Below, one piece after another: positions 1 through 50,908 of a DNA stretch of 64,000 bases. This DNA comes from an uncultured Pseudomonadales bacterium (GTDB lineage: Bacteria; Patescibacteriota; Microgenomatia; UBA1400; MFAQ01), in assembly GCA_964487665.1 (NCBI GenBank), contig CAZARR010000004.1:816-64815 (forward strand). Direction: 5' to 3'. How positions within the stretch are numbered: the stretch's first letter is position 1; each line of letters starts with the position of its first letter. Both the position numbers and the translations under genes were made by a program. A model generated the notes under the pieces. It ran no database searches and was not told where the DNA came from. It saw nothing but the letters and a program-made list of their open reading frames with translations.

Positions 1-504
1 GCATAAAAATACAGAGGGTTGGTTGATGGTGTTAAAGCAGAGCAAGGGCCACCCAGACCAATGAATAGGCCAGAGGTGTTTTAGCCAGAAAGTCCATCTG
101 AGTTTTGGGTCAGAGACAAGACAATTACCGACAACCCAAAGTTTATCGGGGTTTTTATGAAAATATTGAACTACCCTTTGAAATGCTCCGGGAAGGTAGT
201 AATCGTCGGAATTAATATATGCCACGATTTCTCCGGTGGCCTGGTTAAGTGCTTGATTTATTGCGTTGACTTGCCCCTTGTCTTTTTTGGATTGCCATTT
301 GATGACTTTGGGGTATTTTTTTGCGTACTTTTGTATTATTTCAACAGATCCGTCGGTTGATCCTCCGTCGAATATTAAATATTCTAGGTTTGGATAATCT
401 TGATTTAGTACCGATGTTATCGTCTCCTCGAGATAGGAAGCTTGGTTAAATGAGGGGGAAATGACGGTGATCTTCGGATAATTATTTACGTTTTTTGATT
501 TCAT
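1..504 (-). CDS. Glycosyltransferase family 2, 3'-truncated by the window edge (not in the ORF track)
   Basis: Manual reverse-strand translation from the ATG at 504..502 gives MKSKNVNNYPKITVISPSFNQASYLEETITSVLNQDYPNLEYLIFDGGSTDGSVEIIQKYAKKYP...VAYINSDDYYLPGAF, which has the classic GT2 N-terminal IPxxN / DGGSTD / SDD motifs. The frame stays open to position 1. The start overlaps the stop of the upstream DUF2304 gene. Confidence 0.7.
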   Translation of the reverse strand, partial: MKSKNVNNYPKITVISPSFNQASYLEETITSVLNQDYPNLEYLIFDGGSTDGSVEIIQKYAKKYPKVIKWQSKKDKGQVNAINQALNQATGEIVAYINSDDYYLPGAFQRVVQYFHKNPDKLWVVGNCLVSDPKLRWTFWLKHLWPIHWSGWPLLCFNTINQPSVFLC

Positions 505-832
505 CCTTGATGGCTCTTTCACTAACCATTTTTTGTATCCTTCGCTGTAGGTCCTTGACCCCAACATGATTTTGGAAACCGAGGTAAGTTAAGACCATAA
601 ACGCGCCAATGGTGAGAAGGTCAAATACCCTAATTACGTTTAGATCGCTAAGAAAGGGGTTGAGTAGGGTGGGAAAAATTGTGAAGAACAGAAACCCCGA
701 CCAGAGAACAAGCCAAATATAATATTCCTTTTGGTCAATATTCCCCCTTTTGTGATGAAGGAAAATAAGATAGAGCATGAATAGCCCGAAAAATAGCGCA
801 ATTAATTGCACCCCGAAAAAGGCTTGAATCAT
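482..832 (-). CDS. Small membrane protein, DUF2304-like (GT2-associated)
   Basis: 116 aa with 3-4 TM helices and a basic C-tail (KDEIKKRK). It is sandwiched between two GT2 genes on the same strand, the typical GT2-DUF2304 arrangement. Confidence 0.55.
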   Translation of the reverse strand: MIQAFFGVQLIALFFGLFMLYLIFLHHKRGNIDQKEYYIWLVLWSGFLFFTIFPTLLNPFLSDLNVIRVFDLLTIGAFMVLTYLGFQNHVGVKDLQRRIQKMVSERAIKDEIKKRK

Positions 833-872
833 ATTTTGATTTTATCCTATTCCCCTTAGGTAAGTAAGGTAT

Positions 873-1544
873 CTAGGATAACTTCCACCAAAACGAATTG
901 ACTAGAATTTTAAAGGCGTCAACGATAGTTACTCCTTTGTACTTATCCACATAAATGGTTTCGATGGGAACTTCGATAAACCTTAGAAGGTGGCGATGTT
1001 TCCCCAGTCGGGCAATCATTTCCGTCTCTACTCCGTACCCCGGAGGAGGAGACGGCTTCCACTTAATTATTTTGTATGTTTTTTTGTTAAAAGCTCTGAA
1101 ACCTGAAAGTAAATCACTGACATAGACGCCAAACAGTAACCCTATGTAGACAGAGGCGAACTTGTTACCCAAAAATCGGACAAGAGGGGTGTCAATAGAT
1201 TTTTTGCGTGACCCGAGAACAAAATCATATCCTTCCCTGAGTTTACGTAAAAACTGGGGAATTTCTGCAGGGTTGTGCTGTAGATCTGCATCCATTAGCA
1301 CGAAGGAGTCGGCTCCCTGTTTGATGGCGTATTGGATACCAGTGAGAAGTGCCGCGGATTTGCCCAGGTTGAGATGATGGCGTAAAAGATGTTGGTGCGA
1401 TTTCAGTTTTAGTTTGGTTGGTTTTTTTGACCCATCGTCAACGATAACGATGGGAATATTCGGTGCAACATGATTTATCCGAGAGAGCAACTTCATGAGG
1501 CGGTCGCCTTCGTTGTACGATGGGATTATTAGGTAGGTATTCAT
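873..1544 (-). CDS. Glycosyltransferase family 2, DPM1/polyprenyl-phosphate sugar synthase-like
   Basis: MNTYLIIPSYNEGDRL...IVIVDDGSKK...VLMDADLQHNP. This is the N-terminal GT-A fold with a DxD (DAD) motif; it is short (223 aa) and soluble. Confidence 0.8.
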   Translation of the reverse strand: MNTYLIIPSYNEGDRLMKLLSRINHVAPNIPIVIVDDGSKKPTKLKLKSHQHLLRHHLNLGKSAALLTGIQYAIKQGADSFVLMDADLQHNPAEIPQFLRKLREGYDFVLGSRKKSIDTPLVRFLGNKFASVYIGLLFGVYVSDLLSGFRAFNKKTYKIIKWKPSPPPGYGVETEMIARLGKHRHLLRFIEVPIETIYVDKYKGVTIVDAFKILVNSFWWKLS

Positions 1545-1565
1545 CTGTTGCAGTTTGGCTATTCT

Positions 1566-2702
1566 TCAACCTATAAAATATCCTCGGGAAAAGAGACTGA
1601 TTGAAATGATGCTAGTGAGAACCAGTATTAGGTACACAATTTTCCTTACCCAAAGAGCTTGAGTTGATAACCAGTGTGCGGCGACCATAAAAAGAGGGAA
1701 GATGACGATTAAATATCGAGGCATAGAGGAGAGGGTTCCTGTGAGCGTTGGGAGAATGAACGAACCGAGCGAATAGATAAAATAAGAGATGGGTAATCTT
1801 TTGTAAACAAGGTAAAGTAATGGCAGGCTAATTATGCCCGAGGAAAATTCGATCATGGCTGTAAAATAAGTGGGGGTGAGGGGATTGCTGAAAAACATCA
1901 TTTTGAGGTAACGGTAAAATACCTGGTGAAGAAGAATCAATTTGTCGACTGTTCGACTTGCTCCGAATGCCGGCTGGCTGTTTACAAAATAGAGAGGATC
2001 CCCGGTAACAAAATTTTGGTAGAAAATATAACTGATTAACCCCAGAGGTGGGATTACCAACCAGACGATATTGGGATCTAGTACAGTTTTTTTGAAATTC
2101 TTTTTATTTTCGATGAAAAGTTGTCCTGCAATTGAGAACCACAAGAATATTCCCGGGATCCGGCTAAATGATGCAATTCCGGCCATAATACAGGCCAATG
2201 GGTAATTTTTTTTAGCTATAAAATAAAAGGTAAGCAGTGAAACCAAAAGAAAGGTAGAGTCACTATAAACTGAGACTAAAAAAAAGGCTGTTGGGAAAAC
2301 AGCCATTAATTGAAGTGTGGTCTTGGCCACGCTAATTTTAAAAAACCTAGTTGTTAGTTTAAATAGTAACAGAATAGATAACAAGGTTGACAGATTTGAG
2401 ACAAATAACCCGCTACCTAAATAGCCAAAAATTGGTGCAAATAAACGAATTGAGGCCGGATACAGAGGAAAGAAGGCATATAACTGATTAGTGTAAATTG
2501 TGTTGTACCAGTGCTGGGCAAGAATTTGGTAGTGGATGCCGTCAAAATTGGCCCAAACGTTTACTAGATATTCGGCGGTTAGCCTTTCCGGTAACTTTGT
2601 ATATCCAGGATGGAGTGGTAAAAGAAAGAAGGCTGGAATGATAGAAATTAGTAGGGCCGCCCTCCAAATAATAAACAAACGAACCAGCTTAAGATTGCTC
2701 AT
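1566..2702 (-). CDS. PIG-V-like (GT76-like) polytopic mannosyltransferase
   Basis: 378 aa with about 10 TM helices. The motif FDGIHYQILAQHWY...YAFFPLYP matches the PIG-V signature WDxxHFxxIAxxGY...AFFPxxP. Confidence 0.55.
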   Translation of the reverse strand: MSNLKLVRLFIIWRAALLISIIPAFFLLPLHPGYTKLPERLTAEYLVNVWANFDGIHYQILAQHWYNTIYTNQLYAFFPLYPASIRLFAPIFGYLGSGLFVSNLSTLLSILLLFKLTTRFFKISVAKTTLQLMAVFPTAFFLVSVYSDSTFLLVSLLTFYFIAKKNYPLACIMAGIASFSRIPGIFLWFSIAGQLFIENKKNFKKTVLDPNIVWLVIPPLGLISYIFYQNFVTGDPLYFVNSQPAFGASRTVDKLILLHQVFYRYLKMMFFSNPLTPTYFTAMIEFSSGIISLPLLYLVYKRLPISYFIYSLGSFILPTLTGTLSSMPRYLIVIFPLFMVAAHWLSTQALWVRKIVYLILVLTSIISISLFSRGYFIG

Positions 2703-3769
2703 TATGCGACAAATTTTCCTGATAAAAATAATTTAAACAGATACACCTGAAGGATAACACACAATAATAAAAATATATAAAAAATATTCCGTCTTTTGGT
2801 GCCCGCGCAAATAAAATAGATAGGAAACAACACCATCATATACCGGGGAAACGATGACAGGGTGCCAGTTAAACTAGGGATAAGTGTGCCTAGCAAGACG
2901 TAGAGCGCCTGTGGAAATTGCTTTACTTTAAATAAAATATATGAAAAAAATATTCCTAAGGTAAAAGAAAAAACCTCGAGTAAAGCAATTTTGTACTGGT
3001 GAAGTGTCGGGGAGACAGTTAATAGTATCCTGATATAGCGATAAACTGTTTGAAGAGGAAGGGTGACGTTTGATTTATTCCATAGCGATAGCGAGTGCAC
3101 AAATGACAACGGGTCGTTAAAAGCGAAAAATAGATATAGCATATAAACGAATAATCCTAGTGGGATTAGGAATAGATATGCGTGTTTCTTTTCTAATCTC
3201 TTGTGCTTTAGGTATAAATCACTAATAAGTAACGGAAATAACAGAATTCCATAAAAGCGGGTCAGAGCAGCCAAGAATCCAAACGTGCCAGAAATAAAAA
3301 ATTTATCTTGTTTGTATGAATACCAACTAACTAACGATAAGAGCAGAAATAGACTCTCTGTATAGCTAGAAACGAAGAAGAAGGCTAGTGGGTAAGAAAT
3401 TAGCGCCAACGATGAGGAAAATGTTTTATCTAGACGGTTAAATATTATTAACGACAAAATAAGGCAACAAAGTGAAATTACAATCGATCCTAACAAAGGA
3501 TCGATAAAATTTGAAAAGATGCCTATCAACCGTGGGAACAGTGGGAAAAAGGCAGTTTGAAATTGCATTTTATACCCGGAACTAGCAATGTTTTGATAAT
3601 GGGCTCCGTCGAAATTACCAAGGTGCCAAAGAAATTGAGGTGAAGTTGTGTATAGTCCGGTGTCTTTTTCGAAAGAGTATGGAAAAAAATTATTATGTGG
3701 TAGAAGTAACACCAATGTCAGTAAGGTTAACCAGGCCACAAATAGTCCCCAAAAGTGTACAGCTTTCAT
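2702..3769 (-). CDS. PIG-V-like (GT76-like) polytopic mannosyltransferase, paralog
   Basis: 355 aa. FDGAHYQNIASSGYKMQFQTAFFPLFP is the same signature as the adjacent gene. It is a tandem paralog, and its stop overlaps the neighbouring start. Confidence 0.55.
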   Translation of the reverse strand: MKAVHFWGLFVAWLTLLTLVLLLPHNNFFPYSFEKDTGLYTTSPQFLWHLGNFDGAHYQNIASSGYKMQFQTAFFPLFPRLIGIFSNFIDPLLGSIVISLCCLILSLIIFNRLDKTFSSSLALISYPLAFFFVSSYTESLFLLLSLVSWYSYKQDKFFISGTFGFLAALTRFYGILLFPLLISDLYLKHKRLEKKHAYLFLIPLGLFVYMLYLFFAFNDPLSFVHSLSLWNKSNVTLPLQTVYRYIRILLTVSPTLHQYKIALLEVFSFTLGIFFSYILFKVKQFPQALYVLLGTLIPSLTGTLSSFPRYMMVLFPIYFICAGTKRRNIFYIFLLLCVILQVYLFKLFLSGKFVA

Positions 3770-4785
3770 TGTGAGTTTGAATTCACGTGATAATAGACAT
3801 CAGCGGTTCTTGTAGCGGTTTCTTTCCAGGAAAATCGCTTTGCTTGCTGATATCCGGATTGAATGTGCTTACCTTTGGCGTTTTCCGATAAACCAATTGC
3901 ACTTCTTATAGCGTTTATCATGCTCATAGTGTTTGTCGGGTCAAAATTTATTGCTTCGGGATAATACAACTCGGGCAAACTGGATGAATTTGAGCTGACT
4001 AGTAAGCAACCTGAGGCCATGGCTTCGAGAACGGGGATACCAAAACCTTCATACAGAGATGGCTGACAATAAACAGTTGCCAGTCGGTAGAAACCAGGTA
4101 GATCGTCGGTGGGGACAAAACCTGGATATAGTATGTGATCGTAATCTTTAAGCCTAGCTAAATCGGTCAATTCAGCATGTATCGGTCCGGGGGGAAGATT
4201 TTTTGCTACATCTCTACCCACTATCACCAGCTGAAGTTTTAGTTGTTTGGTTGCTTTTGCTAAGGCGGGGAGGTTTTTGTTGGGGTTAGGTCCCCCTGCT
4301 ACGGTTAAGACAAATTTATCAGGGAGGTGATATTTTGTTTTGATTGCTGCCATATTTTTGGGCGAAATTGGCTTGGAAAAGATTTGGTCGAAAGCGAGGT
4401 AAATGGGAAATATTTTCGATGGACTTATTTTGAAAAACTTTACGATATCCGCTTTTGAGTTTTTTGAGTCCGTAATAATTGCCTGGACATTATGAAGGGA
4501 GATCCTTTGGTGGAACAAACCAAGCCGTCCGCGAATTCCCTTAGGATACAGTTTGGACAAAACCAAAGGGGTTAGATCATGGATGGTGATGATTGTGGGA
4601 AGGGTTTTTACTAGAGGAAGCGTGCAATAGAAGGGGTCAAAGAAAAGATAGTGGATTAAATCTGGATCATCGTTGACAATTGCTACATTCGGTAGTTTGT
4701 GCAATTCATTGGCTAAATTGTCTGCATACAACCCGATTCCCCTACCGCCAGAATGGTCAGATGAGGCTAGTTTAACTTTTAGCAT
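3766..4785 (-). CDS. Glycosyltransferase family 4 (GT-B, 'group 1')
   Basis: The EGFGIPVLEAMASGCLLVSS motif (EX7E region) is typical of GT4, and the protein is 339 aa. Confidence 0.8.
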   Translation of the reverse strand: MLKVKLASSDHSGGRGIGLYADNLANELHKLPNVAIVNDDPDLIHYLFFDPFYCTLPLVKTLPTIITIHDLTPLVLSKLYPKGIRGRLGLFHQRISLHNVQAIITDSKNSKADIVKFFKISPSKIFPIYLAFDQIFSKPISPKNMAAIKTKYHLPDKFVLTVAGGPNPNKNLPALAKATKQLKLQLVIVGRDVAKNLPPGPIHAELTDLARLKDYDHILYPGFVPTDDLPGFYRLATVYCQPSLYEGFGIPVLEAMASGCLLVSSNSSSLPELYYPEAINFDPTNTMSMINAIRSAIGLSENAKGKHIQSGYQQAKRFSWKETATRTADVYYHVNSNSQ

Positions 4786-4812
4786 GGTGTGTATAGACTA
4801 TAGTATAACCAT

Positions 4813-6327
4813 ATGAAAGGGTTGTGGATGGCTAGAAGAAAAGAAATATTGGGTTGTCTATGTGTGTTTTTGGGAATATTCTGTTTCGCTTTAGGGAATT
4901 GGGTTTTTCGTACTTTTATGATCAACGTGGACGAAAAAGATCATCTAGTCGTTGGATATTTGATGTCAAAAGGGTGGGTACTCTATAAGGACATCTTCAC
5001 CCACCACTTTCCATTTCCATATTATTGGGTAAGGATTTTTGATTTTATGTGGGTAAACCTGATTCCTCACCGTGGAATTGCAATGTTTAGAACAACACTG
5101 AATATATATTACCTATTTTGCTCAGCATTGGTTTTGATAAACCTTAGGGCTTTTAGGGATCGGTTGTTTTTTGTTGTTTTTTTAAATAGCACGGTTTTAT
5201 TAATGCCCTTGTTTCATGGTAATTTGTTGTTAAGCGAAACGTTTGGTTTTTTCCCGGTAATTATGATTATCTGGCTGGTGTTTTCGAACCTAAGTAACGT
5301 TCTTCGCGAAAATTGGATTTTGGTATTAAGTTCGCTTGTGTTGTGTAGTATGGGATTTTGGTCGCAACCACTGGTGTTTCCTGTCTTTTTTTTGCCGTTG
5401 CTCTACTTGCGCAAAAAAAGGAGAGCCTATTTGGGGCTTGTAATAGCCATTCAAGTATTACTGCTTTTGTTTCTTTGGCAAAATGGTTCGTTAGCAGCCT
5501 TTACCCAAATGGGTATTTGGTTTAATTTTAATGTTTATTCACCTTATTACTATGACATTGAAGGTGTTAATCCGGGGTTATCGGGATTTATTACGAAAAT
5601 AATTGATAATCAATTCACAATGATGTTTAGACCTGACATTAAAAATGCCGTATTATCGCTCCAGTTTATTGGAAGCTGGGTTTTGTGTTTACTTGGAATC
5701 AACCTAATACTGAAAAAAAACTATAGATTGCTTGCTGGTCTATTGCTATGCATTTTTCTGGTTAGAGTGCGAGAGGCAAAAGTTAACCCTGGACATATGT
5801 TTAACTTTGGGGTGTGGCCTTATATGATGTTTATCAATCTTGTGCTTATTTGGTTGATACGATCTACCCGAGGTTTAGTGCGGGTCTTTGTAGTGGCTAG
5901 TTTTTCGTTATATTTTTTTTATGTCATATTTGGGTCTAGGACTATTGTTTTACAAAGCTTGATTCAAGGTTACAATTACCATATATTTTGGGGTGATCGA
6001 GAAGCGATCGGTAACGAGATGGCAAAACTCGCAGGGGATGATAAAAATGTGTTAGTTTATCCGCACGATGTTGATCTGTACTACTTTGCTAGAAAAGAAC
6101 CCCCCGATAGGTTCTTGTATTGGTTCCCCTGGGTGAACCAAATTAGTAGTTATAGAAAGGAACGAGAGAGGGCTATTGAGCAAAAAAGCGTTAGGGTTAT
6201 GTATTTAGGGGGTATGAGTTTTAAGGGAGAAAATAATTATTATCTAAATATGTGGCCAGATTTGAAAAAAGGATTTAAGGTTGCTACAACCGAGGGAAAG
6301 TTTAGCAATATTTGGGTCAGGCAGTAA
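4813..6327 (+). CDS. Polytopic membrane protein, unknown family
   Basis: 504 aa with more than 10 predicted TM helices and a soluble C-terminal ~120 aa. No motif recognised. Confidence 0.45.
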   Translation: MKGLWMARRKEILGCLCVFLGIFCFALGNWVFRTFMINVDEKDHLVVGYLMSKGWVLYKDIFTHHFPFPYYWVRIFDFMWVNLIPHRGIAMFRTTLNIYYLFCSALVLINLRAFRDRLFFVVFLNSTVLLMPLFHGNLLLSETFGFFPVIMIIWLVFSNLSNVLRENWILVLSSLVLCSMGFWSQPLVFPVFFLPLLYLRKKRRAYLGLVIAIQVLLLLFLWQNGSLAAFTQMGIWFNFNVYSPYYYDIEGVNPGLSGFITKIIDNQFTMMFRPDIKNAVLSLQFIGSWVLCLLGINLILKKNYRLLAGLLLCIFLVRVREAKVNPGHMFNFGVWPYMMFINLVLIWLIRSTRGLVRVFVVASFSLYFFYVIFGSRTIVLQSLIQGYNYHIFWGDREAIGNEMAKLAGDDKNVLVYPHDVDLYYFARKEPPDRFLYWFPWVNQISSYRKERERAIEQKSVRVMYLGGMSFKGENNYYLNMWPDLKKGFKVATTEGKFSNIWVRQ

Positions 6328-13126: not shown

Positions 13127-13181
13127 TGTTTGGTTTAATTATATTCTAGTGGACACAGTAAATGGGTGTTACACTCAAAGA

Positions 13182-20257: not shown

Positions 20258-20284
20258 ATTTAGATCGAATTGTAATGTGTTTTT

Positions 20285-24780: not shown

Positions 24781-24782
24781 TT

Positions 24783-43075: not shown

Positions 43076-43076
43076 T

Positions 43077-45315: not shown

Positions 45316-45323
45316 AAGGAGAA

Positions 45324-46313
45324 TTATAACTTGTTTTGCCTTTTGAGTTGCTCGATGCAGGCAACAAACCTGTCTTCCAAATGGTGCATACTTCCCCGAA
45401 ATAAGAAAGAGGCTGAGGCGGCGTGGCCACCTCCACCAAAAATATGGGCCACCTGAGATACGTCAACAGACGGATCCCGGCTCCTAAGAGATACCTTGAT
45501 GTACTCGGGGTCTTTTTCGACCATAATTGCCCCAAACTTGGTGTTTTGAATTTTTCCGGCAAATTTGTTAGCTATTATTCCAGTACCCGGAGACAGGCCA
45601 ATCTTAAGGTAATCTGGGTAGGTAAATTTCATCCAAGCATAATCACCAGAAGGTGACAATTTGAGCGATTGGAGACAAACACCCCAGGCTAAATAATCTT
45701 TTTGAGTAAAGTTTTTTTCTAATTGAGTCTGGCAGAAATTATAATTTGCGCCAGATTTAATCAGTTTGGCCGAAATTTGAAGGGTTGTGGCTGTAGTGTT
45801 TGTGTTGGCAAATGTACTGGTGTCAGAAATTATTCCTGAGAGCAAACAAGTGGCGATGTCTGAGGATAGATGAATATCAAGATTGGGGAGTAGGCGTGCG
45901 ATCATTTCGCAGGTGGAGGAATAATTTGGATCGACCCAACTGAAGTTTGATCTAATCTTGCTGTCGGGATGATGATCAATGTTAATAAGATGATTTTTAT
46001 CCAATTTCGGTGTGGTGCTACGAGAAACTAAATTCCAATTGGCAGTGTCCAAACTGAGGTAGCATCGATACGGATACGAGAGGGCTGTTTGAAGAGAAAT
46101 GGTTTCGATTGAATCTGCCCAAGGTATAAAAGTCATGCCATGAGGAATTGTGTCCTCACAAAATACTTGGACGGTTTTGCCAATCGATTCAAGGGCAATT
46201 TTTAATGCCAAGGCAGAGCCGATCGAGTCCGGATCGGGACCGAGGTGTACGTGGCAAAGAAAGGAATCTGTGGTATGAATTAATTTAATAATTGAATTTG
46301 GAGGAGTTGTCAT
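45324..46313 (-). CDS. DHH-family phosphoesterase (NrnA-like nanoRNase/pAp phosphatase)
   Basis: CHVHLGPDPDSIGSALAL (DHH motif I), LINIDHHPD (the DHH motif) and the GGGHAASASF DHHA1 glycine motif. The start is at the internal ATG 46313, giving an ATGA overlap with the upstream stop; the track's N-terminal extension is discarded. Confidence 0.7.
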   Translation of the reverse strand: MTTPPNSIIKLIHTTDSFLCHVHLGPDPDSIGSALALKIALESIGKTVQVFCEDTIPHGMTFIPWADSIETISLQTALSYPYRCYLSLDTANWNLVSRSTTPKLDKNHLINIDHHPDSKIRSNFSWVDPNYSSTCEMIARLLPNLDIHLSSDIATCLLSGIISDTSTFANTNTTATTLQISAKLIKSGANYNFCQTQLEKNFTQKDYLAWGVCLQSLKLSPSGDYAWMKFTYPDYLKIGLSPGTGIIANKFAGKIQNTKFGAIMVEKDPEYIKVSLRSRDPSVDVSQVAHIFGGGGHAASASFLFRGSMHHLEDRFVACIEQLKRQNKL

Positions 46314-47788
46314 TGTGAATGTATAAGTCGGTAGATGGAAATGTAATCGATTTGCCATTTCTCTACTACCTTCGCCGGTCCAAAAACTGCAATTTGCCAT
46401 TGGGAATTTCCCTCTGGTTGGCAGGTGTCACCGTCTTCGCACACAACAAATAGTTGGTCCGTAATACCATTCTCACCTCTGATTAATTTGGCTTTTTCAT
46501 TCTCGAAAAAATAACGGTACGACTCGTCGTAATTCTGTTTGGCTATTAGGCCGAAGTTAAAAGGGCGATCGTTTGATTTGTCTCTGATAAGTTCGGTAAC
46601 GGCCCTGGTCCGCCAAAGCAACCGGTTTGGCGACTGAAATAATGGGTTGTTAGCAATGTTGATAATAGTCAAGCTAAATAACCCCAGACCGCCAATAAGT
46701 TTTAGAAATAGCCTGGATTTTCTAATAAAAAAGCTTACGGATATTCCAATTAGTAGGAAATATGCAGGGTAGCTCATTCCAAAGTAATGCGAGTAGATCG
46801 GTTGATGATAGAACGCCAAACCAAAAATAGGAGCTAAACTCCAGATGTATAGAATCGAATATTGTAACTGATGTCTATGGCGAAAAACGTGCGCAATGGT
46901 GATAAGAAACAGAATTACAAGAATTGCTGGGTAAATTGTTAGTGGCCTGTAAAAAAGATAAACTGTAAGTTTTTCTAACATCTGCGCTAGATGTTGAGGT
47001 GAGGGTATTGCAAAGTTGGATTGATCTTTGACAGAAAAAAATGTGCTAAGACTATGCAGGTTGAGGAAGTTATGTTTGATATCATAAAGTAACAGAGGTA
47101 TTTGAAATACAAAAAAGACTAGTAAAGCGCTGATGGTGTGATCAAAAAGTTTGTTTTTGGAATTTTTAGACAGTATTAGTTCTCGTACCCAGATAAATAA
47201 GAACAGTGGTAGTAAAAATACGGCCAAGTAATGTAACTGAATAGCTAAGCCAAAAAGTGCAGCCGATATCAGCAAGTATACTTTTCTGGAGGATTTTGCG
47301 TATTTGTAAATAAACCAGGTCACCAGTAACGAGGCTAGAGGTAACGGGTTAGGATTCCAAGAAAAGGTAGACGTTTTTATCGTCAGTGGTGAGGTGGCGT
47401 AAAGAAATGCACCAATAAGTGCCGCCATTTGGCCAAACCATACTCTTCCTATTAGCCAAATTAGGAATACAGTAGCAACTGAAAGCAAAGCAACGATAAT
47501 AGCTGGGCCAGAAGGATCTGATGAAATAAATAGTGATGGAGCGATAAGGTAGTAATAGAATGGTCCAAGATAAGCATTGCCCACACTTGTTTGCGGTCCA
47601 ATGAATACTAGGTTTCCTTTTAATAGGTCGCGAACAACCCTCATATCCCTGCCTTGATCGCCTAAAAAGATTAGGTAGTCGTTGATGCGATACAAACGCA
47701 AGAAGGCGGAAATAATTACCACAAAAGCTATCAGAAAAAGTTCCCGTTTATTTGATCTGACCCAGGCGGTTATTTTAGCTTGCGCCAT
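46310..47788 (-). CDS. Polytopic membrane protein, family B paralog
   Basis: IFLGDQGRDMRVVRDLLKGNLVFIGPQTSVGNAYLGPFYYYLI; 492 aa. It is immediately downstream of a DPM1-like GT2. Confidence 0.5.
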   Translation of the reverse strand: MAQAKITAWVRSNKRELFLIAFVVIISAFLRLYRINDYLIFLGDQGRDMRVVRDLLKGNLVFIGPQTSVGNAYLGPFYYYLIAPSLFISSDPSGPAIIVALLSVATVFLIWLIGRVWFGQMAALIGAFLYATSPLTIKTSTFSWNPNPLPLASLLVTWFIYKYAKSSRKVYLLISAALFGLAIQLHYLAVFLLPLFLFIWVRELILSKNSKNKLFDHTISALLVFFVFQIPLLLYDIKHNFLNLHSLSTFFSVKDQSNFAIPSPQHLAQMLEKLTVYLFYRPLTIYPAILVILFLITIAHVFRHRHQLQYSILYIWSLAPIFGLAFYHQPIYSHYFGMSYPAYFLLIGISVSFFIRKSRLFLKLIGGLGLFSLTIINIANNPLFQSPNRLLWRTRAVTELIRDKSNDRPFNFGLIAKQNYDESYRYFFENEKAKLIRGENGITDQLFVVCEDGDTCQPEGNSQWQIAVFGPAKVVEKWQIDYISIYRLIHSQ

Positions 47789-48486
47789 AGGCGGAACAAG
47801 TCAACAAAGCTCTTGACAATTACGTTGAGTTTGGCTCCGGTAGCCTCACCATTTTTACGTGGATAGTGGTTGACGCCAATTTCGACAATCTTGAATCCCA
47901 AATTTTGGGCTTTGATAAGAAATTCACTACTAATGAAGGCGCCTCTTTCGCTTTCGAGCTTGGGAATAGAATCGACGATTCGTTTGGAAATTAATTTAAA
48001 TCCACAGTCTATATCACGAACTTTTAGACCAAAAAGAATGTAAACAATGCTTTGCCACAATTTTGAATTTAGCTTCCGGGCAAAGGATACTTTACGGTCG
48101 AGATAGTAGCCGATGACTGCGTCTGCGCGGGTCTTTTTTTGGATGGTGATAAATTTATTAATTTCAGAAAAATCAAATTGCCCGTCTGCGTCAATAAAAG
48201 CGATCCACGGGTGTTTAGAGGCATATAGGCCTGCTTTGAAAGCTCCGCCGTACCCGCGGTTGGGACGATGGTGAATCACTTTGATGTGGGGGTCTTTGGC
48301 GGCTAATGAATCGGCAAGCCGGCCAGTGTCATCCGTTGAGCCATCGTCAATGATTATTATTTCGTAGTCTCTGGCTACTTTACGTAGATTGGAGGCAACG
48401 TTTTGGGCGGTCTTTTGTATGTTTAAAGCCTCGTTGTAGCAAGGCAGGAACACAGACAGACTATCGAGATTATTTGGCTGGGGCAT
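47770..48486 (-). CDS. Glycosyltransferase family 2, DPM1/polyprenyl-phosphate sugar synthase-like
   Basis: LSVFLPCYNEALNIQKT...IIIIDDGSTDDTGRLA...AFIDADGQFDF; 238 aa. Confidence 0.8.
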   Translation of the reverse strand: MPQPNNLDSLSVFLPCYNEALNIQKTAQNVASNLRKVARDYEIIIIDDGSTDDTGRLADSLAAKDPHIKVIHHRPNRGYGGAFKAGLYASKHPWIAFIDADGQFDFSEINKFITIQKKTRADAVIGYYLDRKVSFARKLNSKLWQSIVYILFGLKVRDIDCGFKLISKRIVDSIPKLESERGAFISSEFLIKAQNLGFKIVEIGVNHYPRKNGEATGAKLNVIVKSFVDLFRLWRKLK

Positions 48487-48501
48487 ATATGAGGTATTAT
48501 A
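48487..48501 (-). promoter_or_regulatory. Putative -10 box (TATAAT) placed 9 nt before the ATG of the GT2 gene 47770..48486, giving a near-leaderless transcript
   Basis: The minus-strand sequence reads cactagcacTATAATacctcatatATG. The same 15-nt spacer carries a GAGG Shine-Dalgarno site for the divergent plus-strand GTG gene at 48502. Confidence 0.3.
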
Positions 48502-49650
48502 GTGCTAGTGACAAAAAGTTGGAAACATGGGTTGGCAGTTATTGGAGTAACGTTGCTAGTAATACTAACGGTCCAACTCCCATTTCATCTGAAAGTGAAG
48601 AACTTGTTAGGAATGGATTTTTCTCGGGGAAGTGAGGTCTTGTGGATGAACTATGACGGACCAAATTACCTGGTGGTGGAAAAGACTTGGTATAACCCGA
48701 AAGAAATCGCGCGGAACTTTTCTAACCCGATCCCAATCGAATACTATCCTGCACATTGGCCTTTATATCCGCTAATTATCCGGTTGTTCGATTCGTATTT
48801 ATTGGGCCCAACAGCGATGCTTGTAGCAACAATTATTGGCTCGTTGGTATTATCATTAGCGATATTTTTTTATTCGAGGGAAGTCGGAATTGATCAAAAT
48901 TCTGCGTTGATACTGGTCTCTGTGGGGCTTTTTCTACCCGCTAGGATGGTAATCTTACGATCCATTGGCTCTCCCGAACCATGGTTTGCTGCTTTTTGTT
49001 TGTTGTGCCTTTACTTTTATCGGAGGCAAATGTACTGGCCGGCTGGATTAATGGCTGCACTGGCCCAAGCAACTAAGGCCCCCGGGGTATTGTTACTGTT
49101 GGCTGTGGTGGTGTATGAGGGGGCAGGATATCTTTGTGGTAAAAGAGAAAGCATTGGGAAAATTCTGGGGAGGATATTGCCCTTCGGTTTGGTTGGGGTG
49201 GTTATCGGAATTGTGTTTGGGATTTATTATATTCGCACAGGAGACTTGATGGCATACTTTCACAGCGGTGATAATTTTCATTTGTTTTTGCCCCCCTTTC
49301 AGATATTTACTAAAGTAAGTGCTTGGGTAGGCGATTTTTGGCTTGAGGAGGTGATTTGGATGTGGGGTATATATTTGGTGGGAGTATTGGGGTTGTTTAA
49401 ACAAAAACTTAACCTGGAAGGAATTTTTGCCTTAACCTTTGTCGTGGTCACTTTTTTTGTAGCTCATCGTGACATATCTCGGTATATCATTCCAGTTTCT
49501 CCACTTATCCTGATCGGGTACCAAAAGGCAGTACTTAAAAAGGAAGTACTGGCAATTTTGCTATTGATGATCGTTCCTATAGTACTGTATAGCTGGAATT
49601 TTGTACTTCATAACAACGCCCCGGTAGCTGACTGGACACCCTATCTTTAA
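48502..49650 (+). CDS. Polytopic membrane protein, PIG-V/GT76-like (third copy) or DUF2029-like
   Basis: 382 aa. WMNYDGPNYLVVEKTWY...YYPAHWPLYPLI resembles the xDGxxY...GY...FPLxP signature of 1566..3769. It has a GTG start preceded by a GAGG Shine-Dalgarno site. Confidence 0.4.
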   Translation: MLVTKSWKHGLAVIGVTLLVILTVQLPFHLKVKNLLGMDFSRGSEVLWMNYDGPNYLVVEKTWYNPKEIARNFSNPIPIEYYPAHWPLYPLIIRLFDSYLLGPTAMLVATIIGSLVLSLAIFFYSREVGIDQNSALILVSVGLFLPARMVILRSIGSPEPWFAAFCLLCLYFYRRQMYWPAGLMAALAQATKAPGVLLLLAVVVYEGAGYLCGKRESIGKILGRILPFGLVGVVIGIVFGIYYIRTGDLMAYFHSGDNFHLFLPPFQIFTKVSAWVGDFWLEEVIWMWGIYLVGVLGLFKQKLNLEGIFALTFVVVTFFVAHRDISRYIIPVSPLILIGYQKAVLKKEVLAILLLMIVPIVLYSWNFVLHNNAPVADWTPYL

Positions 49651-49653
49651 TAT

Positions 49654-50832
49654 TTACTTCTTCTTCCAGATAAACTTGTTGTACATTAGCCAGTTGTAGG
49701 GGAGCACCAGAAATAGAATTATGAAGGGTAATAAAAGTTGTCGGTAGTTCGCGCCTAACATAAGTACTCCGATTGATCCCGTAACTGTCTGTATTAGCAA
49801 AGCGCCCGAAGAGCTCAGGTTGAATTGAAGAAACTTTTTTAATAGGTTTGCGAGCCCTGAAATCTGGTCGGATTTGAACGTCCAAAGATTGTTAAGGGTG
49901 AAGTTACTAATAATCGCGGCTTCTGTGGATACTGCCCAAGCTACCCATTCCGGTTGACCAATACGAGAGAGCAATCCCAAAATGCTAGCGTTTACTACAT
50001 AGCCGACAAAACCAACGGTACCAAACTTGATGAACTTCTGAGTAGTTTCGTCGTGCCAACGAAGTAATACTGCCACACGAAATATATCTTTCGCAGTTTG
50101 GGGCTCAATTTTCGATTCACCAGCATTTCTGACTTGAAACCTGAGGGGAACCTCTTTGAATTTGGCTCCTAACTTAAGAGTTTCGAAGAGAAGCTGAAGT
50201 TTGTAACCGAAACTTTTAGTATAAAGATGTGATCCGTTTAGATTAAGACGATCGAGAAAACCTTGCACTCTGGTAACCTTGAAGCCTGTCGTCGGGTCTG
50301 TAACGTCAAAGAAATGTTTAAATGGAAAAAACAAAATAAATCTGGCCACTAAACCACCAAACTCACTAAAGAAAAGACGTTTAAATCCCCACCCGCTTGG
50401 ATTACTACCACCTTTGATTTTACGTGAGCCTATGACATAGTCGAACCCGTCTTCAAGCGCCTTGAGAGCTAGAGTGATTGTCTCCGGAGGGTGTTGAAAA
50501 TCACCATCCATTTCAAAAACATAGTCAGCACCAAGTCTGTCAATTGCAAATCTAAACCCATCAAGATATGCACTGCCTATTCCGGTTTTGTTTGGACGTT
50601 GTAGAAGGTATAAATTGGAATACTTTTTGGAAATTTTCTCGACAATGGCAGATGTACCATCCGGTGAGTTGTCGTCAACCACTAAGATGTTGATTCTCCA
50701 ATCTTGAGATAGCCCTCCTTCTTTTGACTTAATATCAGGAATTGTCTTTTCGCAAAGATACTTGAGCATTTGGCCAATAGTCCCTGCTTCGTTGTAAGTG
50801 GGAATAACGATCGTCGCAGTGCTTTGCTTCAT
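49654..50832 (-). CDS. GT2 polyprenyl-phosphate glycosyltransferase fused to a C-terminal GtrA-like membrane domain
   Basis: TIVIPTYNEAGTIGQ...ILVVDDNSPDGT...FEMDGDFQHPP, followed by the C-terminal KFIKFGTVGFVGYVVNASILGLL...AIISNFTLNNLWTFK, which is GtrA-family. The start is taken at MKQSTATIVIPTYNE (50832) and the track start is 50874. Confidence 0.75.
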   Translation of the reverse strand: MKQSTATIVIPTYNEAGTIGQMLKYLCEKTIPDIKSKEGGLSQDWRINILVVDDNSPDGTSAIVEKISKKYSNLYLLQRPNKTGIGSAYLDGFRFAIDRLGADYVFEMDGDFQHPPETITLALKALEDGFDYVIGSRKIKGGSNPSGWGFKRLFFSEFGGLVARFILFFPFKHFFDVTDPTTGFKVTRVQGFLDRLNLNGSHLYTKSFGYKLQLLFETLKLGAKFKEVPLRFQVRNAGESKIEPQTAKDIFRVAVLLRWHDETTQKFIKFGTVGFVGYVVNASILGLLSRIGQPEWVAWAVSTEAAIISNFTLNNLWTFKSDQISGLANLLKKFLQFNLSSSGALLIQTVTGSIGVLMLGANYRQLLLPFIILFLVLPYNWLMYNKFIWKKK

Positions 50833-50908
50833 GAGATGAAGTATAGCAAAAGATTGTTCGAAATATTGATACATTAATCTCAGTATTCTGTTATAAAATC
50901 ACTGCATA

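What the first reader, a model, noticed from the sequence alone, without database searches (positions are those of the whole stretch)
1..50874. 50-kb glycosylation super-island: 11 GT2, 2 GT4, one Wzx and about 23 large polytopic membrane proteins, of which ~19 form GT-C-like paralog families
Almost every gene over 50 kb is a glycosyltransferase or a large polytopic membrane protein. Most are co-oriented on the minus strand with overlapping stops and starts, which looks like long polycistrons. Soluble DPM1-like GT2 enzymes at 873, 44554, 47770 and 49654, with a further GT2 at 7962 (unsubtyped), sit immediately upstream of GT-C-fold membrane enzymes. Those partners are PMT/ArnT-like, PIG-V-like, family A and family B proteins. 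This is the two-step logic of protein O-mannosylation or ArnC/ArnT: a polyprenyl-phosphate sugar synthase feeding a periplasm-facing transferase. Many parallel copies imply many distinct acceptors or linkages. Candidates are heavy glycosylation of surface proteins, pili or an S-layer, or a lipoglycan, in a small-genome organism. That is an unusual investment.
Basis: partly seen in the sequence, partly recalled or inferred. Interest (0 to 1): 0.7.

Follow-up and report, generated by a model that had tools for sequence, protein, structure and literature searches.

The report
Giant conserved surface-sugar gene cluster
A tiny-genome CPR bacterium (Microgenomates) devotes over 50 kb, about 5% of a roughly 1-Mb genome if it is the size of its relatives, to one gene cluster with 23 membrane sugar-transferases of the GT-C type and their lipid-sugar donor enzymes; its core is conserved across the class, so these cells probably build an elaborate, still unknown surface glycan.

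Summary
Window 1-50874 holds 40 genes and is 98.7% coding. They are 11 GT2 (one cut by the window edge), 2 GT4, one Wzx, 23 polytopic membrane proteins, one DUF2304, one DHH phosphoesterase and one orphan. All 23 membrane proteins, not about 19, link to the GT-C superfamily, by Pfam, paralogy, profile comparison or predicted fold.

Four GT2 enzymes resemble polyprenyl-phosphate sugar synthases. Gene 49654 matches archaeal Dol-P-Man synthase over its full length, including its membrane domain, so it is not soluble. GT2 7962 is not of this type.

This is not a horizontally acquired island. The gene order is conserved across Microgenomates (80 loci), with position-specific orthologues. In a 97-98% identical strain the cluster continues more than 10 kb left of the window, through an ABC exporter and methyltransferases.

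Best model: few lipid-sugar donors feed many GT-C transferases, which assemble or decorate an envelope glycan outside the membrane. The acceptor is unknown. The mechanism is a known kind; the scale and organisation appear undescribed.

The parts
1..504 (-). GT2 glycosyltransferase, N-terminal 168 aa only (cut by the window edge); 262 aa in the sister strain
   Evidence: PF00535 8.3e-33; full-length gene in L083 at 10329-11117
482..832 (-). DUF2304 small membrane protein, probable partner of GT2 873 (analogous to Rv3632 and GacJ)
   Evidence: PF10066 7.3e-16
873..1544 (-). Soluble GT2, PpgS/DPM1-like candidate polyprenyl-P-sugar synthase
   Evidence: PF00535 5.9e-22; best NCBIfam hit is PpgS, 4.9e-25, full length but below the curated cutoff
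1566..2702 (-). GT-C-like, family A3 (GPI-mannosyltransferase-I-like)
   Evidence: Paralogue of 2702 (3e-32). The family profile hits PDB GPI-MT-I at 1.5e-4. hhalign 94.7% to the 43077 family. Motif NFDGxHY after TM1
2702..3769 (-). GT-C-like, family A3
3766..4785 (-). GT4 (GT-B) cytoplasmic glycosyltransferase
   Evidence: PF00534 4.6e-21
4813..6327 (+). GT-C-fold enzyme of a family with no Pfam model
   Evidence: AF2 model pLDDT 92. The Foldseek PDB top 13 hits are all GT-C (DPY19 3.8e-4, PglB, AglB, AftA, STT3, ArnT). hhalign 93.5% to PMT_2-like families. Conserved D40-E41 after TM1
6317..7981 (-). GT-C, PTPS_related/YfhO-like family
   Evidence: PF10131 4.5e-8; paralogue of 38034 (5.5e-62)
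7962..8840 (-). GT2, not DPM1-like (paralogue of 29635 and 32489)
   Evidence: PF00535 4.5e-14; PDB top hits are GmaR and SunS
8827..10479 (-). GT-C, PMT_2/ArnT-like (subfamily a)
   Evidence: PF13231 1.7e-11
10469..11440 (-). Short (323 aa) GT-C-like membrane protein
   Evidence: hhalign 97.6% to PMT_2 subfamily a; weak BLASTP links
11453..13126 (-). GT-C, PMT_2-like (subfamily a)
   Evidence: BLASTP 2e-64 to 8827; PMT_2 25.2 bits, just under the cutoff
13053..13724 (+). Orphan ORF, one TM segment, function unknown (not a glycosylation gene by any test)
   Evidence: No Pfam hit; no homologue in 80 loci; called as a 180-aa gene in the sister strain
13711..15123 (+). GT-C, PMT_2-like
   Evidence: PF13231 1.2e-6, 29.3 bits
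15144..16805 (-). GT-C, PMT_2/PMT-like (subfamily a)
   Evidence: PF13231 1e-7; PF02366 4.9e-5
16798..18798 (-). GT-C-like, DUF6541-like family (short form)
   Evidence: Paralogue of 33399 (4.7e-37); hhalign 95% to PMT_2 subfamily a
18803..20257 (-). GT-C, PMT_2-like (subfamily b)
   Evidence: BLASTP 1e-35 to 20285 and 4e-14 to 46310
20285..21853 (+). GT-C, PMT_2-like (subfamily b)
   Evidence: PF13231 9.5e-6, 26.4 bits
21819..23159 (-). GT-C-like, related to 30463 (ALG3/PimE-type)
   Evidence: hhalign 96.6% to the 30463 family and 92.5% to PMT_2 subfamily a
23078..23911 (-). GT2 cytoplasmic glycosyltransferase
   Evidence: PF00535 7.5e-20
23908..24780 (-). GT2 cytoplasmic glycosyltransferase
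   Evidence: PF13641 7.2e-18
24783..27098 (+). GT-C, YfhO family
   Evidence: PF09586 3e-12; hhalign 99% to the PTPS_related family
27049..28587 (-). GT-C, PMT_2-like (subfamily b)
   Evidence: BLASTP 2.4e-13 to 46310
28584..29657 (-). GT4 cytoplasmic glycosyltransferase
   Evidence: PF00534 1.3e-21
29635..30462 (-). GT2 cytoplasmic glycosyltransferase
   Evidence: PF00535 2e-13
30463..31584 (-). GT-C fold (ALG3/ALG6/GPI-MT-I/PimE type); strain-variable cassette
31581..32498 (-). GT2 cytoplasmic glycosyltransferase
   Evidence: PF00535 7.4e-11
32489..33409 (-). GT2 cytoplasmic glycosyltransferase
   Evidence: PF00535 8.4e-17
33399..36608 (-). 1069-aa protein: an N-terminal DUF3863-like domain predicted to be extracytoplasmic, plus a DUF6541-like GT-C membrane domain. 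It follows Wzx directly (or after one PMT_2a gene) in most loci
   Evidence: PDB 3lm3 1.4e-4 for residues 154-387; hhalign 95% to PMT_2 subfamily a; Wzx followed by this family in 47 of 57 loci
36601..38061 (-). Wzx-type (MOP) flippase
   Evidence: PF13440 2.2e-51
38034..39761 (-). GT-C, PTPS_related family, tandem position 3
   Evidence: PF10131 4.2e-12; positional orthologue in 11 of 11 loci
39739..41412 (-). GT-C, PTPS_related family, tandem position 2
   Evidence: PF10131 1.1e-14; 10 of 11 loci
41399..43144 (-). GT-C, PTPS_related family, tandem position 1
   Evidence: PF10131 1.1e-9; 11 of 11 loci
43077..44624 (-). GT-C, PMT/PMT_2-like (subfamily c)
   Evidence: PF02366 3.7e-9; PF13231 5.9e-9
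44554..45315 (-). Soluble GT2, ArnC/DPM1-like, directly upstream of GT-C 43077
   Evidence: PF00535 7.6e-28; NCBIfam ArnC 7e-18; adjacency conserved in 51 of 63 loci
45324..46400 (-). DHH/DHHA1 phosphoesterase embedded in the operon; role unknown
   Evidence: PF01368 2.6e-13; homologues in 11 of 80 loci, at least some in the same relative position
46310..47788 (-). GT-C, PMT_2-like (subfamily b)
   Evidence: PF13231 1.9e-14
47770..48486 (-). Soluble GT2, ArnC/DPMS/GtrB-like, directly upstream of GT-C 46310
   Evidence: PF00535 6e-32; PDB ArnC 9hwj 3e-15, DPMS 5mlz 4e-11, GtrB 5ekp 4e-9
48502..49650 (+). GT-C-like, family A3, conserved on the opposite strand
49654..50874 (-). Membrane-bound GT2 with a GtrA/DPMS transmembrane domain; archaeal-type Dol-P-Man-synthase-like
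   Evidence: PF00535 8.7e-25 plus PF04138 2e-16; PDB 5mlz 8.1e-41 over residues 20-388

Best explanation
This is the main envelope-glycan assembly locus of a Microgenomates (CPR) bacterium. It is vertically inherited, not an acquired island.

Proposed mechanism:
1. Four GT2 enzymes on the cytoplasmic face load single sugars from nucleotide sugars onto polyprenyl phosphate. These are 49654, a DPMS-type enzyme with its own membrane domain; 47770 and 44554, soluble ArnC/DPM1-type enzymes; and 873, PpgS-like with a DUF2304 helper.
2. In parallel, cytoplasmic GT2 and GT4 enzymes (32489, 31581, 29635, 28584 and others) build a lipid-linked oligosaccharide or polymer. In the sister strain the neighbouring ABC-exporter module lies just left of the window.
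3. Lipid-linked intermediates are flipped by Wzx (36601), by the GtrA-like domain of 49654, or by both.
4. Outside the membrane, 23 GT-C enzymes use the few lipid-sugar donors to extend, branch and decorate the acceptor. Each supplies its own linkage or acceptor specificity. This is the logic of mycobacterial LM/LAM/arabinogalactan synthesis, of streptococcal Gac-type wall polysaccharides, and of ER-lumenal N-glycan and GPI assembly.

Shown here: gene content, family and fold membership, conserved adjacency, and ancient subfunctionalised paralogues.
Inferred: donors, sugars, flipping route, acceptor, and that the enzymes act on one product.
For: GT-C membership of all 23 polytopic proteins rests on four tiers of evidence:
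- 11 pass Pfam gathering scores for PMT_2, PMT, PTPS_related or YfhO.
- 3 are clear BLASTP paralogues of those.
- 7 are linked by profile-profile comparison at 92-99%. The Wzx negative control scores at most 0.8%. One of these families also hits solved GPI-MT-I at 1.5e-4.
- 2 orphans have confident models whose best structural matches are GT-C enzymes.

Further support:
- An acidic motif (DE, HD, DQxRD or FDGxHY) follows the first membrane helix in at least 18 of the 23, where GT-C catalytic residues sit; the rest either lack an obvious one in the first 80 residues or have their membrane domain further in.
- 49654 aligns with P. furiosus Dol-P-Man synthase at 8e-41, including the membrane domain. 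47770 aligns over its whole catalytic domain with ArnC, DPMS and GtrB. The best NCBIfam hit of 873 is PpgS, and a DUF2304 gene follows it, as in the Rv3631/Rv3632 pair (PMC3485146).
- Synteny in 80 Microgenomates loci: GT2 precedes the 43077-type GT-C in 51 of 63; at least three tandem PTPS_related genes in 59; Wzx is preceded by PTPS_related in 53 of 57 and followed by the DUF6541-like gene in 47 of 57. The GT2 size class is conserved by position.
- The three tandem PTPS_related genes are positional orthologues in 11/11, 10/11 and 11/11 loci, so they are old and non-redundant.
- The sister strain shows the locus continuing into GT2s, methyltransferases and a Wzm/Wzt-like ABC exporter.
- Precedent for a soluble GT2 with a small membrane helper, a Wzx flippase and a PMT_2 GT-C: GacI/J/K/L (PMC8035078).
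Against: - There is no biochemical or expression evidence of any kind. The organism is uncultured.
- No initiating phosphoglycosyltransferase, Wzy/PCP pair or LCP ligase was found in the window, so the acceptor pathway is incomplete as seen.
- Only one GtrA-like domain and one Wzx are present for four putative lipid-sugar donors.
- All NCBIfam matches of the GT2 enzymes fall far below the equivalog cutoffs, so the sugars cannot be named.
- Seven GT-C assignments rest on profile-profile probabilities of 92-98% between hydrophobic proteins.
- Nothing shows that the enzymes work on a single product rather than on several unrelated acceptors.
Confidence: 0.7

Rival explanations
1. The locus is mainly a protein O-glycosylation machine. 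PMT-like GT-C enzymes transfer sugars from polyprenyl-P-sugars onto Ser/Thr of many secreted proteins, pili or an S-layer, and further GT-Cs elongate the glycans.
For: Eleven proteins fall in the PMT_2/PMT-like network with a DE-type loop motif. The best NCBIfam hit of 49654 is PgfS, the streptococcal protein-glycosylation GT2 (PMC12041528). Membrane-anchored proteins just right of the locus carry short Ser/Thr/Pro-rich linkers.
Against: No MIR domains are present. PMT_2 is the family of polymer- and lipid-modifying enzymes such as ArnT, GtlB and GacL (PMC8035078). From general knowledge, known bacterial O-mannosylation needs one Pmt, not two dozen GT-Cs. A Wzx, a cytoplasmic GT block and an adjacent ABC exporter point to a polysaccharide. 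The Ser/Thr linkers are generic.
Confidence: 0.2
2. The locus is a set of independent three-component decoration systems. Each adds one side-chain sugar to a teichoic-acid-like or wall polymer, and the set diversifies for evasion of phages or hosts.
For: YfhO and PMT_2 enzymes do exactly this in Firmicutes (PMC8035078). One GT-C gene (30463) is a clean strain-level indel. The neighbourhood of the 4813 homologue differs in a relative.
Against: Only four candidate donor synthases serve 23 GT-Cs. The core order and even paralogue positions are conserved across Microgenomates lineages (orders, by my placement of the named groups), which is the opposite of a fast-diversifying decoration repertoire. 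No teichoic acid synthesis genes are in the window.
Confidence: 0.2
3. It is a horizontally acquired, strain-specific genomic island, as the title 'super-island' implies.
For: G+C is slightly lower than in the right flank, 0.35-0.43 against 0.40-0.44. There is one cassette-like gene indel.
Against: Synteny with 80 loci of Collier-, Shapiro-, Woese- and Daviesbacteria at 34-46% protein identity. trmD flanks the same end in two relatives. There is no tRNA and no integrase or transposase among the Pfam hits.
Confidence: 0.04
4. The large membrane proteins are transporters or unrelated membrane proteins, and the cluster is an ordinary polysaccharide locus.
For: Nine of the 23 had no Pfam hit at E <= 0.01, and three more matched only below the curated cutoff.
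Against: Structural searches rank only GT-C enzymes at high probability, while transporters score below 0.15. The profile-level links are specific: the Wzx control scores at most 0.8%.
Confidence: 0.02

Closest known systems
Multi-component transmembrane glycosylation systems of Gram-positive bacteria (CsbB/GtcA/YfhO; GacI/GacJ/GacK/GacL; Csd pairs), reviewed in PMC8035078
   Same: A GT2 makes a C55-P-sugar. A GtrA- or Wzx-type protein flips it. A YfhO or PMT_2 GT-C transfers it outside the membrane. The variant with a soluble GT2 and a small membrane helper matches 873 plus DUF2304. GT2 and GT-C genes are adjacent.
   Different: Known organisms have one to three such pairs, scattered in the genome. 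Here 23 GT-Cs and four synthases sit in one operon-like array that is conserved across Microgenomates lineages. The acceptor polymer is unknown.
Mycobacterial and corynebacterial LM/LAM and arabinogalactan assembly (Ppm1; PimE, MptA/B/C, EmbA-C, AftA-D; PpgS/Rv3632/Rv3779), PMC3485146
   Different: From general knowledge, the mycobacterial genes are dispersed over a genome of more than 4 Mb. No Emb/Aft-type arabinosyltransferase family match passes threshold, and no DPA pathway genes were seen. The lineage is unrelated and its genome is probably about 1 Mb (complete relatives are 0.6-1.1 Mb).
Eukaryotic and archaeal lipid-linked oligosaccharide and GPI pathways (DPM1/DPMS; ALG3/6/9/12; PIG-M)
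   Same: 49654 matches archaeal DPMS over its full length (8e-41). Two families have ALG3/ALG6/GPI-MT-I-type folds or profile hits. The logic is cytoplasmic GTs, then a flippase, then GT-C steps on the far side.
   Different: No STT3/AglB/PglB family member was detected by sequence. No evidence for en bloc transfer to protein.
ArnC/ArnT lipid A modification
   Same: 47770 and 44554 match ArnC as their best or second-best NCBIfam hit and, for 47770, as its best PDB hit. The PMT_2 family includes ArnT.
   Different: From general knowledge, CPR bacteria lack an outer membrane and lipid A. No Ara4N synthesis genes are present, and scores are far below the ArnC equivalog cutoff (65-74 bits against 529).

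Membership tests
GT-C glycosyltransferase superfamily | Polytopic membrane protein with at least 8 transmembrane helices | tested here: met
   A crude hydropathy scan gives 6-11 peaks in all 23. The two models are helical bundles with 17 (4813) and 20 (30463) helices of four or more residues; 4813 also has a small C-terminal domain with short strands.
GT-C glycosyltransferase superfamily | Significant match to a family model accepted as GT-C (PMT, PMT_2, YfhO, PTPS_related and others) | tested here: met
   11 proteins score above the Pfam gathering cutoff and 3 more are BLASTP paralogues of them. YfhO and PMT_2 are listed as GT-C types in PMC8035078. That PTPS_related belongs to Pfam's GT-C clan is from memory; here it is linked to YfhO at 99% by hhalign.
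GT-C glycosyltransferase superfamily | Remote homology of the remaining proteins to GT-C families | tested here: met
   hhalign probabilities: 10469 97.6%, DUF6541-like 95%, A3 family 94.7%, 21819 92.5% and 96.6%, 4813 93.5%. The Wzx control scores at most 0.8%. The A3 profile hits PDB GPI-MT-I at 1.5e-4.
GT-C glycosyltransferase superfamily | GT-C fold | tested here: met
GT-C glycosyltransferase superfamily | Acidic catalytic residue in the first extracytoplasmic loop | tested here: inconclusive
   Conserved DE, HD, DQxRD or FDGxHY motifs follow TM1 in most proteins. Topology and catalytic role were not verified.
GT-C glycosyltransferase superfamily | Uses a polyprenyl-phosphate-linked sugar donor | not testable with these tools
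   Needs biochemistry.
Polyprenyl-phosphate sugar synthases (DPM1/DPMS, GtrB, ArnC, PpgS; GT2) | GT-A catalytic domain similar along its whole length to solved or curated members | tested here: met
   49654: 5mlz 8e-41 over residues 20-388. 47770: ArnC 3e-15 over residues 8-221, DPMS 4e-11, GtrB 4e-9. 873: PpgS 4.9e-25 over residues 3-218. 44554: ArnC 7e-18, but only residues 5-169. All are below the NCBIfam equivalog cutoffs.
Polyprenyl-phosphate sugar synthases (DPM1/DPMS, GtrB, ArnC, PpgS; GT2) | Membrane attachment by own TM helices or by a small partner protein | tested here: inconclusive
   49654 has a GtrA/DPMS TM domain (2e-16). 873 is followed by a DUF2304 gene. 47770 and 44554 have no TM segment and no identified partner.
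   Nearest solved proteins are GmaR and SunS, N-terminal region only. No DPMS, ArnC or GtrB hit. It is a paralogue of the cytoplasmic GT2s 29635 and 32489.
Protein O-mannosyltransferase PMT (GT39) | PMT domain plus lumenal MIR domains | tested here: not met
   Weak PMT hits occur in 8827, 15144 and 43077, but no MIR domain in any protein. They fit PMT_2 (ArnT/GtlB type) better.
PIG-V / GPI mannosyltransferase II (GT76) | Match to the PF04188 Mannosyl_trans2 model | tested here: not met
   The best hit is E = 3.6 for 2702; 1566 and 48502 have none. The family profile hits GPI mannosyltransferase I instead.
Wzx (MOP) flippase | Polysacc_synt / Polysacc_synt_3 domain in a protein of about 12 TM helices | tested here: met
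   PF13440 2.2e-51, PF01943 2.3e-19.
Complete Wzx/Wzy-dependent polysaccharide locus | Initiating phosphoglycosyltransferase, Wzy polymerase and chain-length regulator present | tested here: not met
   No PF02397, PF00953, Wzy_C or Wzz hit in any window ORF of 150 aa or more.
Horizontally acquired genomic island | Integrase or tRNA boundary, deviant composition, patchy distribution | tested here: not met
   No tRNA, no integrase, uniform G+C, conserved synteny in 80 loci.

The most novel reading that the evidence does not exclude
Microgenomates build a lineage-specific, highly branched lipoglycan or wall heteropolysaccharide, or a lipid-linked glycan that is later transferred to proteins. It is assembled almost entirely on the outer face of the membrane by an ordered line of more than 20 GT-C enzymes drawing on about four polyprenyl-P-sugar donors. 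This would be a third, independent example of the strategy known from mycobacterial LAM/arabinogalactan and the ER lumen, encoded as a single cluster of at least 60 kb in a genome of about 1 Mb. It is plausibly the molecule that mediates attachment to hosts.
Probability: 0.35. Interest if true: 0.75.

Novelty: new variant of a known kind. Interest (0 to 1): 0.6.

Why it matters
CPR bacteria make up a large share of bacterial diversity, and almost nothing is known about their envelopes. They are thought to live attached to other cells.

- A conserved locus that takes about 5% or more of a genome of about 1 Mb, and holds roughly as many GT-C enzymes as a yeast cell, implies that an elaborate surface glycan is central to Microgenomates biology. 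The yeast comparison is from my own knowledge and was not computed here.
- The locus gives a defined gene set, including a GT-C family of about 1,700 clusters with no Pfam model, for heterologous biochemistry.
- It gives a marker cluster for comparative genomics.
- It offers an explanation for the 'hypothetical membrane protein' families reported as enriched in Microgenomates (PMC6744442). That identity was not tested here.

Tried and rejected
- PDB sequence searches with thin in-window paralogue profiles (A1-A4) found nothing useful. Deeper profiles built from the related loci were needed. The DUF6541-like membrane domain still found no solved relative.
- Exact look-ups of window proteins failed. 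The source contig is not indexed. I went round this through 90%-identity cluster members from a JGI sister contig.
- Pfam at E <= 5 did not classify 4813, 30463, 10469, 1566, 13053 or the N-terminal domain of 33399.
- PF26314, which is precomputed on all 30463 homologues, is not in the local Pfam copy, so I could not name it.
- Seven literature searches found no description of this cluster.
- The 558-aa polytopic protein left of the window (L083 12056-13732) has an FDE motif but no Pfam or in-house family hit. It stays unclassified.
- Rejected readings: the transporter reading, the island reading, and the DPM1-like status of GT2 7962.

Full report
**1. What is in the sequence**

Mechanical ORF listing gives a nearly gap-free gene array. 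Positions 1-50874 are 98.7% coding, and 95.6% of the bases lie in glycosylation-related genes.

Pfam scans of every ORF of 150 aa or more, plus two further scans, give these counts:
- Ten complete GT2 genes: 873, 7962, 23078, 23908, 29635, 31581, 32489, 44554, 47770 and 49654.
- An eleventh GT2 at 1-504(-), cut by the window edge (PF00535, 8e-33).
- Two GT4 genes: 3766 and 28584.
- One Wzx: 36601 (Polysacc_synt_3, 2e-51).
- A DUF2304 small membrane protein: 482-832 (7e-16).
- A DHH/DHHA1 phosphoesterase: 45324.
- One orphan ORF: 13053.
- 23 polytopic membrane proteins.

Thirty-four of the 40 genes are on the minus strand. Genes 27049-48486 form 17 co-directional genes with overlaps or gaps of at most 8 bp. 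The right boundary is real: trmD at 50909, followed by housekeeping genes. The left boundary is only the window edge.

**2. Are the membrane proteins GT-C enzymes?**

The evidence comes in four tiers.
- Pfam, 11 proteins. These pass gathering thresholds for PMT_2/PMT (8827, 13711, 15144, 20285, 43077, 46310), PTPS_related (6317, 38034, 39739, 41399) or YfhO (24783).
- BLASTP paralogy, 3 proteins. 11453, 18803 and 27049 are clear paralogues of those above.
- Profile-profile comparison, 7 proteins. I built deep family alignments from 80 related loci and compared the profiles.
  - PTPS_related to YfhO: 99%.
  - PTPS_related to PMT_2a: 98%.
  - PMT_2 subfamilies a, b and c to each other: 98.7-99.7%.
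  - 10469: 97.6%.
  - DUF6541-like pair 16798/33399: 95%.
  - 1566/2702/48502 family: 94.7%.
  - 21819: 92.5%.
  - A Wzx profile used as a hydrophobic negative control scores at most 0.8% against every family.
  - The deep profile of the 1566 family also hits solved GPI mannosyltransferase I (PDB 23gx_B, 1.5e-4).
- Predicted structure, 2 proteins. The two orphans were modelled from alignments of their homologues.
  - 4813: pLDDT 92. Its 13 best Foldseek PDB matches are all GT-C enzymes (DPY19, PglB, AglB, AftA, STT3, ArnT). Transporters appear only below probability 0.15.
  - With deeper alignments, 30463 links to 21819 (96.6%) and 4813 links to PMT_2a/b (93.5%).

In at least 18 of the 23 proteins an acidic motif follows the first helix, where GT-C catalytic residues lie. 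The forms seen are DE, HD, DQxRD and FDGxHY. The others either show no obvious motif in the first 80 residues or, as in 33399, have their membrane domain much further in.

So all 23 are GT-C-like. About 18 are of the ArnT/PMT/YfhO type and 5 of the ALG3/PimE/GPI-MT-I type. That split follows the published GT-C A/B classification as I remember it.

**3. The GT2 enzymes**

- 49654 carries a GtrA/DPMS transmembrane domain. It aligns with Pyrococcus furiosus Dol-P-Man synthase over residues 20-388 at 8e-41. It is a membrane-bound DPMS-type enzyme, not a soluble one.
- 47770 aligns over its whole catalytic domain with ArnC (3e-15), DPMS (4e-11) and GtrB (4e-9).
- The best NCBIfam hit of 44554 is ArnC.
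- The best NCBIfam hit of 873 is the mycobacterial polyprenyl-P-GalNAc synthase PpgS, full length, at 4.9e-25. A DUF2304 gene follows it. The same kind of pairing, a GT2 synthase with a small integral membrane protein, is described for Rv3631/Rv3632 (PMC3485146) and for GacI/GacJ (PMC8035078). That those partner proteins are themselves DUF2304 members is from memory.
- All of these scores are far below the equivalog cutoffs, so the sugars cannot be named.
- GT2 7962 and its paralogues 29635 and 32489 resemble GmaR and SunS only in the N-terminal region. 23078, 23908 and 31581 resemble rhamnosyl- or EpsD-type transferases. These six are ordinary cytoplasmic glycosyltransferases.

**4. Organism and conservation**

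A degenerate-pattern scan of one genome per GTDB species, using the PTPS_related alignment, found 311 relatives. The best 80 loci are 34-46% identical. Every informatively named one belongs to the Microgenomates group: Collier-, Shapiro-, Woese-, Daviesbacteria and 'Microgenomatus'. Complete genomes among them are 0.6-1.1 Mb.

I classified their ORFs with HMMs built from the window's families. Reading the window's minus strand from 50874 down to about 27000, the gene order is:
- DPMS-type GT2
- A3-family GT-C (opposite strand)
- GT2
- PMT_2b
- GT2
- PMT_2c
- PTPS_related, three copies
- Wzx
- DUF6541-like
- GT2, GT2, GT2, GT4

The same order, with some elements missing or duplicated in individual loci, appears in the related loci.

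Counts across the 80 loci:
- GT2 directly precedes PMT_2c in 51 of 63 loci.
- At least three tandem PTPS_related genes occur in 59 loci.
- PTPS_related precedes Wzx in 53 of 57 loci.
- Wzx is followed by the DUF6541-like gene in 47 of 57 loci.

The GT2 next to the A3 family is typically about 394 aa (DPMS with TM domain). The one before PMT_2c is about 250 aa, and the one before PMT_2b about 235 aa.

The three tandem PTPS_related genes are positional orthologues in 11/11, 10/11 and 11/11 loci. The triplication is therefore ancient, and each copy is kept for its own role.

Composition is uniform. There are no tRNA genes and no integrase-type Pfam hits. This is a core locus, not an acquired island.

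The left half of the window is less strictly conserved:
- Blocks such as GT2-GT2, a 21819-type gene, a DUF6541-like gene and PMT_2a genes recur in the same locus, in varying order, in several Woesebacteria-type loci.
- The neighbourhood of a 54%-identical 4813 homologue is different, though still glycosylation genes.

**5. A sister strain and the true extent**

A JGI metagenome contig (Ga0172278_1680, 174,693 bp) is 96-99% identical to the window.
- It lacks gene 30463 exactly. In the window that gene is flanked by a 10-bp repeat, CTAAATGAAA, which is the stop/start overlap of its neighbours.
- Left of the window start it continues with the full 262-aa GT2, an FkbM-type methyltransferase, a 558-aa unclassified polytopic protein with an FDE motif, a GT2, an ABC-2 permease and ATPase (Wzm/Wzt-like), a TylF-type methyltransferase, a 656-aa GT2 with a weak, below-threshold methyltransferase match at its C-terminus, and another GT2.
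- The glycan locus is therefore at least 60 kb long.

**6. Mechanism**

Shown here: family and fold membership, conserved GT2/GT-C adjacency, and ancient non-redundant paralogues.

Inferred:
- The four DPMS/ArnC/PpgS-like GT2 enzymes make polyprenyl-P-monosaccharides.
- Wzx, the GtrA-like domain of 49654, or both flip lipid-linked intermediates. A Wzx doing this job has precedent in GacK (PMC8035078).
- The cytoplasmic GT2/GT4 blocks and the ABC exporter supply a lipid-linked oligosaccharide or polymer as acceptor.
- The 23 GT-Cs extend, branch and decorate it outside the membrane.

Four donor synthases against 23 transferases argues for shared donors and many linkage- or acceptor-specific steps. 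The mycobacterial LM/LAM/arabinogalactan pathway works this way (PMC3485146), and so does ER-lumenal glycan assembly. That reading fits better than many parallel two-step pairs.

Open gaps:
- No priming phosphoglycosyltransferase, Wzy/PCP pair or LCP ligase is in the window.
- The soluble GT2s 47770 and 44554 have no identified membrane partner.
- The acceptor could be a wall polysaccharide, a lipoglycan or proteins.
- Protein O-glycosylation remains a live rival (confidence 0.2). PMT_2-type enzymes, the absence of MIR domains, and the Wzx and ABC modules favour a glycopolymer.

**7. Novelty**

The mechanism type is known. I found three things undescribed in the searchable literature:
- The scale: 23 GT-Cs in the window, possibly 24 counting the unclassified 558-aa protein just left of it in the sister strain, and at least 60 kb in what is probably a genome of about 1 Mb, judging from complete relatives.
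- The single-locus organisation and its conservation across Microgenomates.
- The GT-C-fold family of 4813. It has about 1,700 clusters at 50% identity and no Pfam model, even on ten distant members tested.

Méheust et al. noted that 14 of the 35 families enriched in Microgenomates are predicted membrane proteins. They described the lineage-enriched families as primarily hypothetical proteins, and the paper's main text nowhere uses the words glycosyl or mannosyl (PMC6744442). These GT-C families may be among them, but I did not test that.

**Verdict**

This is a new variant of a known kind, with interest 0.6.

Noticed in passing
window 30463-31584 (-), junctions near 30462 and 31584; L081 16473-16483: A whole GT-C gene is present in the window but exactly absent from a 98%-identical strain. 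It is flanked by the 10-bp direct repeat CTAAATGAAA, which is the stop/start overlap of the neighbouring genes. The gene can therefore drop in or out without breaking translational coupling. Its G+C is 0.357 against about 0.40 in the flanks.
   Followed up: partly
window 63608-63941 (+): Bacterial RNase P RNA, class A (113 bits, E = 7e-34), complete.
   Followed up: no
window 45324-46400 (-): A DHH/DHHA1 phosphoesterase (NrnA-like) sits inside the glycosylation operon, and homologues occur in 11 of the 80 related loci, at least some in the same relative position. No link to glycan synthesis is obvious.
   Followed up: partly
window 35139-36608 (-), N-terminal ~490 aa of gene 33399-36608: The conserved 1069-aa protein next to Wzx has a large N-terminal domain, predicted to be extracytoplasmic, that matches DUF3863 (PDB 3lm3, uncharacterised, 1.4e-4). 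Its function is unknown. Daviesbacteria homologues are longer still, at about 1150 aa.
   Followed up: partly
window 4813-6327 (+): This GT-C-fold family has 1,704 representative clusters (E <= 1e-3) among 1.84 billion proteins. It has no Pfam model, and ten distant members also have none. Some relatives carry an extra N-terminal region of about 165 aa.
   Followed up: partly
L083 10329-20351 (sister strain, left of the window start): The cluster continues into an FkbM-type and a TylF-type methyltransferase, a Wzm/Wzt-like ABC exporter, a 656-aa GT2 with a weak, below-threshold methyltransferase match at its C-terminus, and an unclassified 558-aa polytopic protein with an FDEMAYHY motif. This suggests a methylated, ABC-exported glycan module.
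   Followed up: partly
window 13053-13724 (+): An orphan ORF with one TM segment overlaps the divergent gene 11453-13126 by 74 nt. It has no Pfam hit and no homologue in the 80 loci. The sister strain's annotation calls it as a 180-aa gene.
   Followed up: no
window 57744-58214, 59173-60081, 60862-62202 (-): Membrane-anchored proteins right of the locus have short Ser/Thr/Pro-rich linkers next to their TM segments, for example TDQTQYPSPTPTPIQS. They include a CAP-domain protein and a DUF3048 protein. They are possible O-glycosylation targets, but this is only a hint.
   Followed up: no
L081 6663-6998 (orthologue of window 39739-41412): In the sister strain the middle PTPS_related gene is called as 441 aa instead of 557, with 335 uncalled bases upstream. 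This is a possible frameshift or assembly error.
   Followed up: no
window 4785-4813, 20257-20285, 24780-24783, 48486-48502, 50874-50909: Divergent gene pairs are separated by only 2-34 bp, so their promoters must lie inside neighbouring coding sequence.
   Followed up: no
loci L001, L003-L006 and others: Many 'binchicken' MAGs that carry this Microgenomates-type cluster are titled 'uncultured Gammaproteobacteria' or 'Pseudomonadales', and one is titled 'Clostridia'. These record titles look like placeholder or wrong taxonomy.
   Followed up: no
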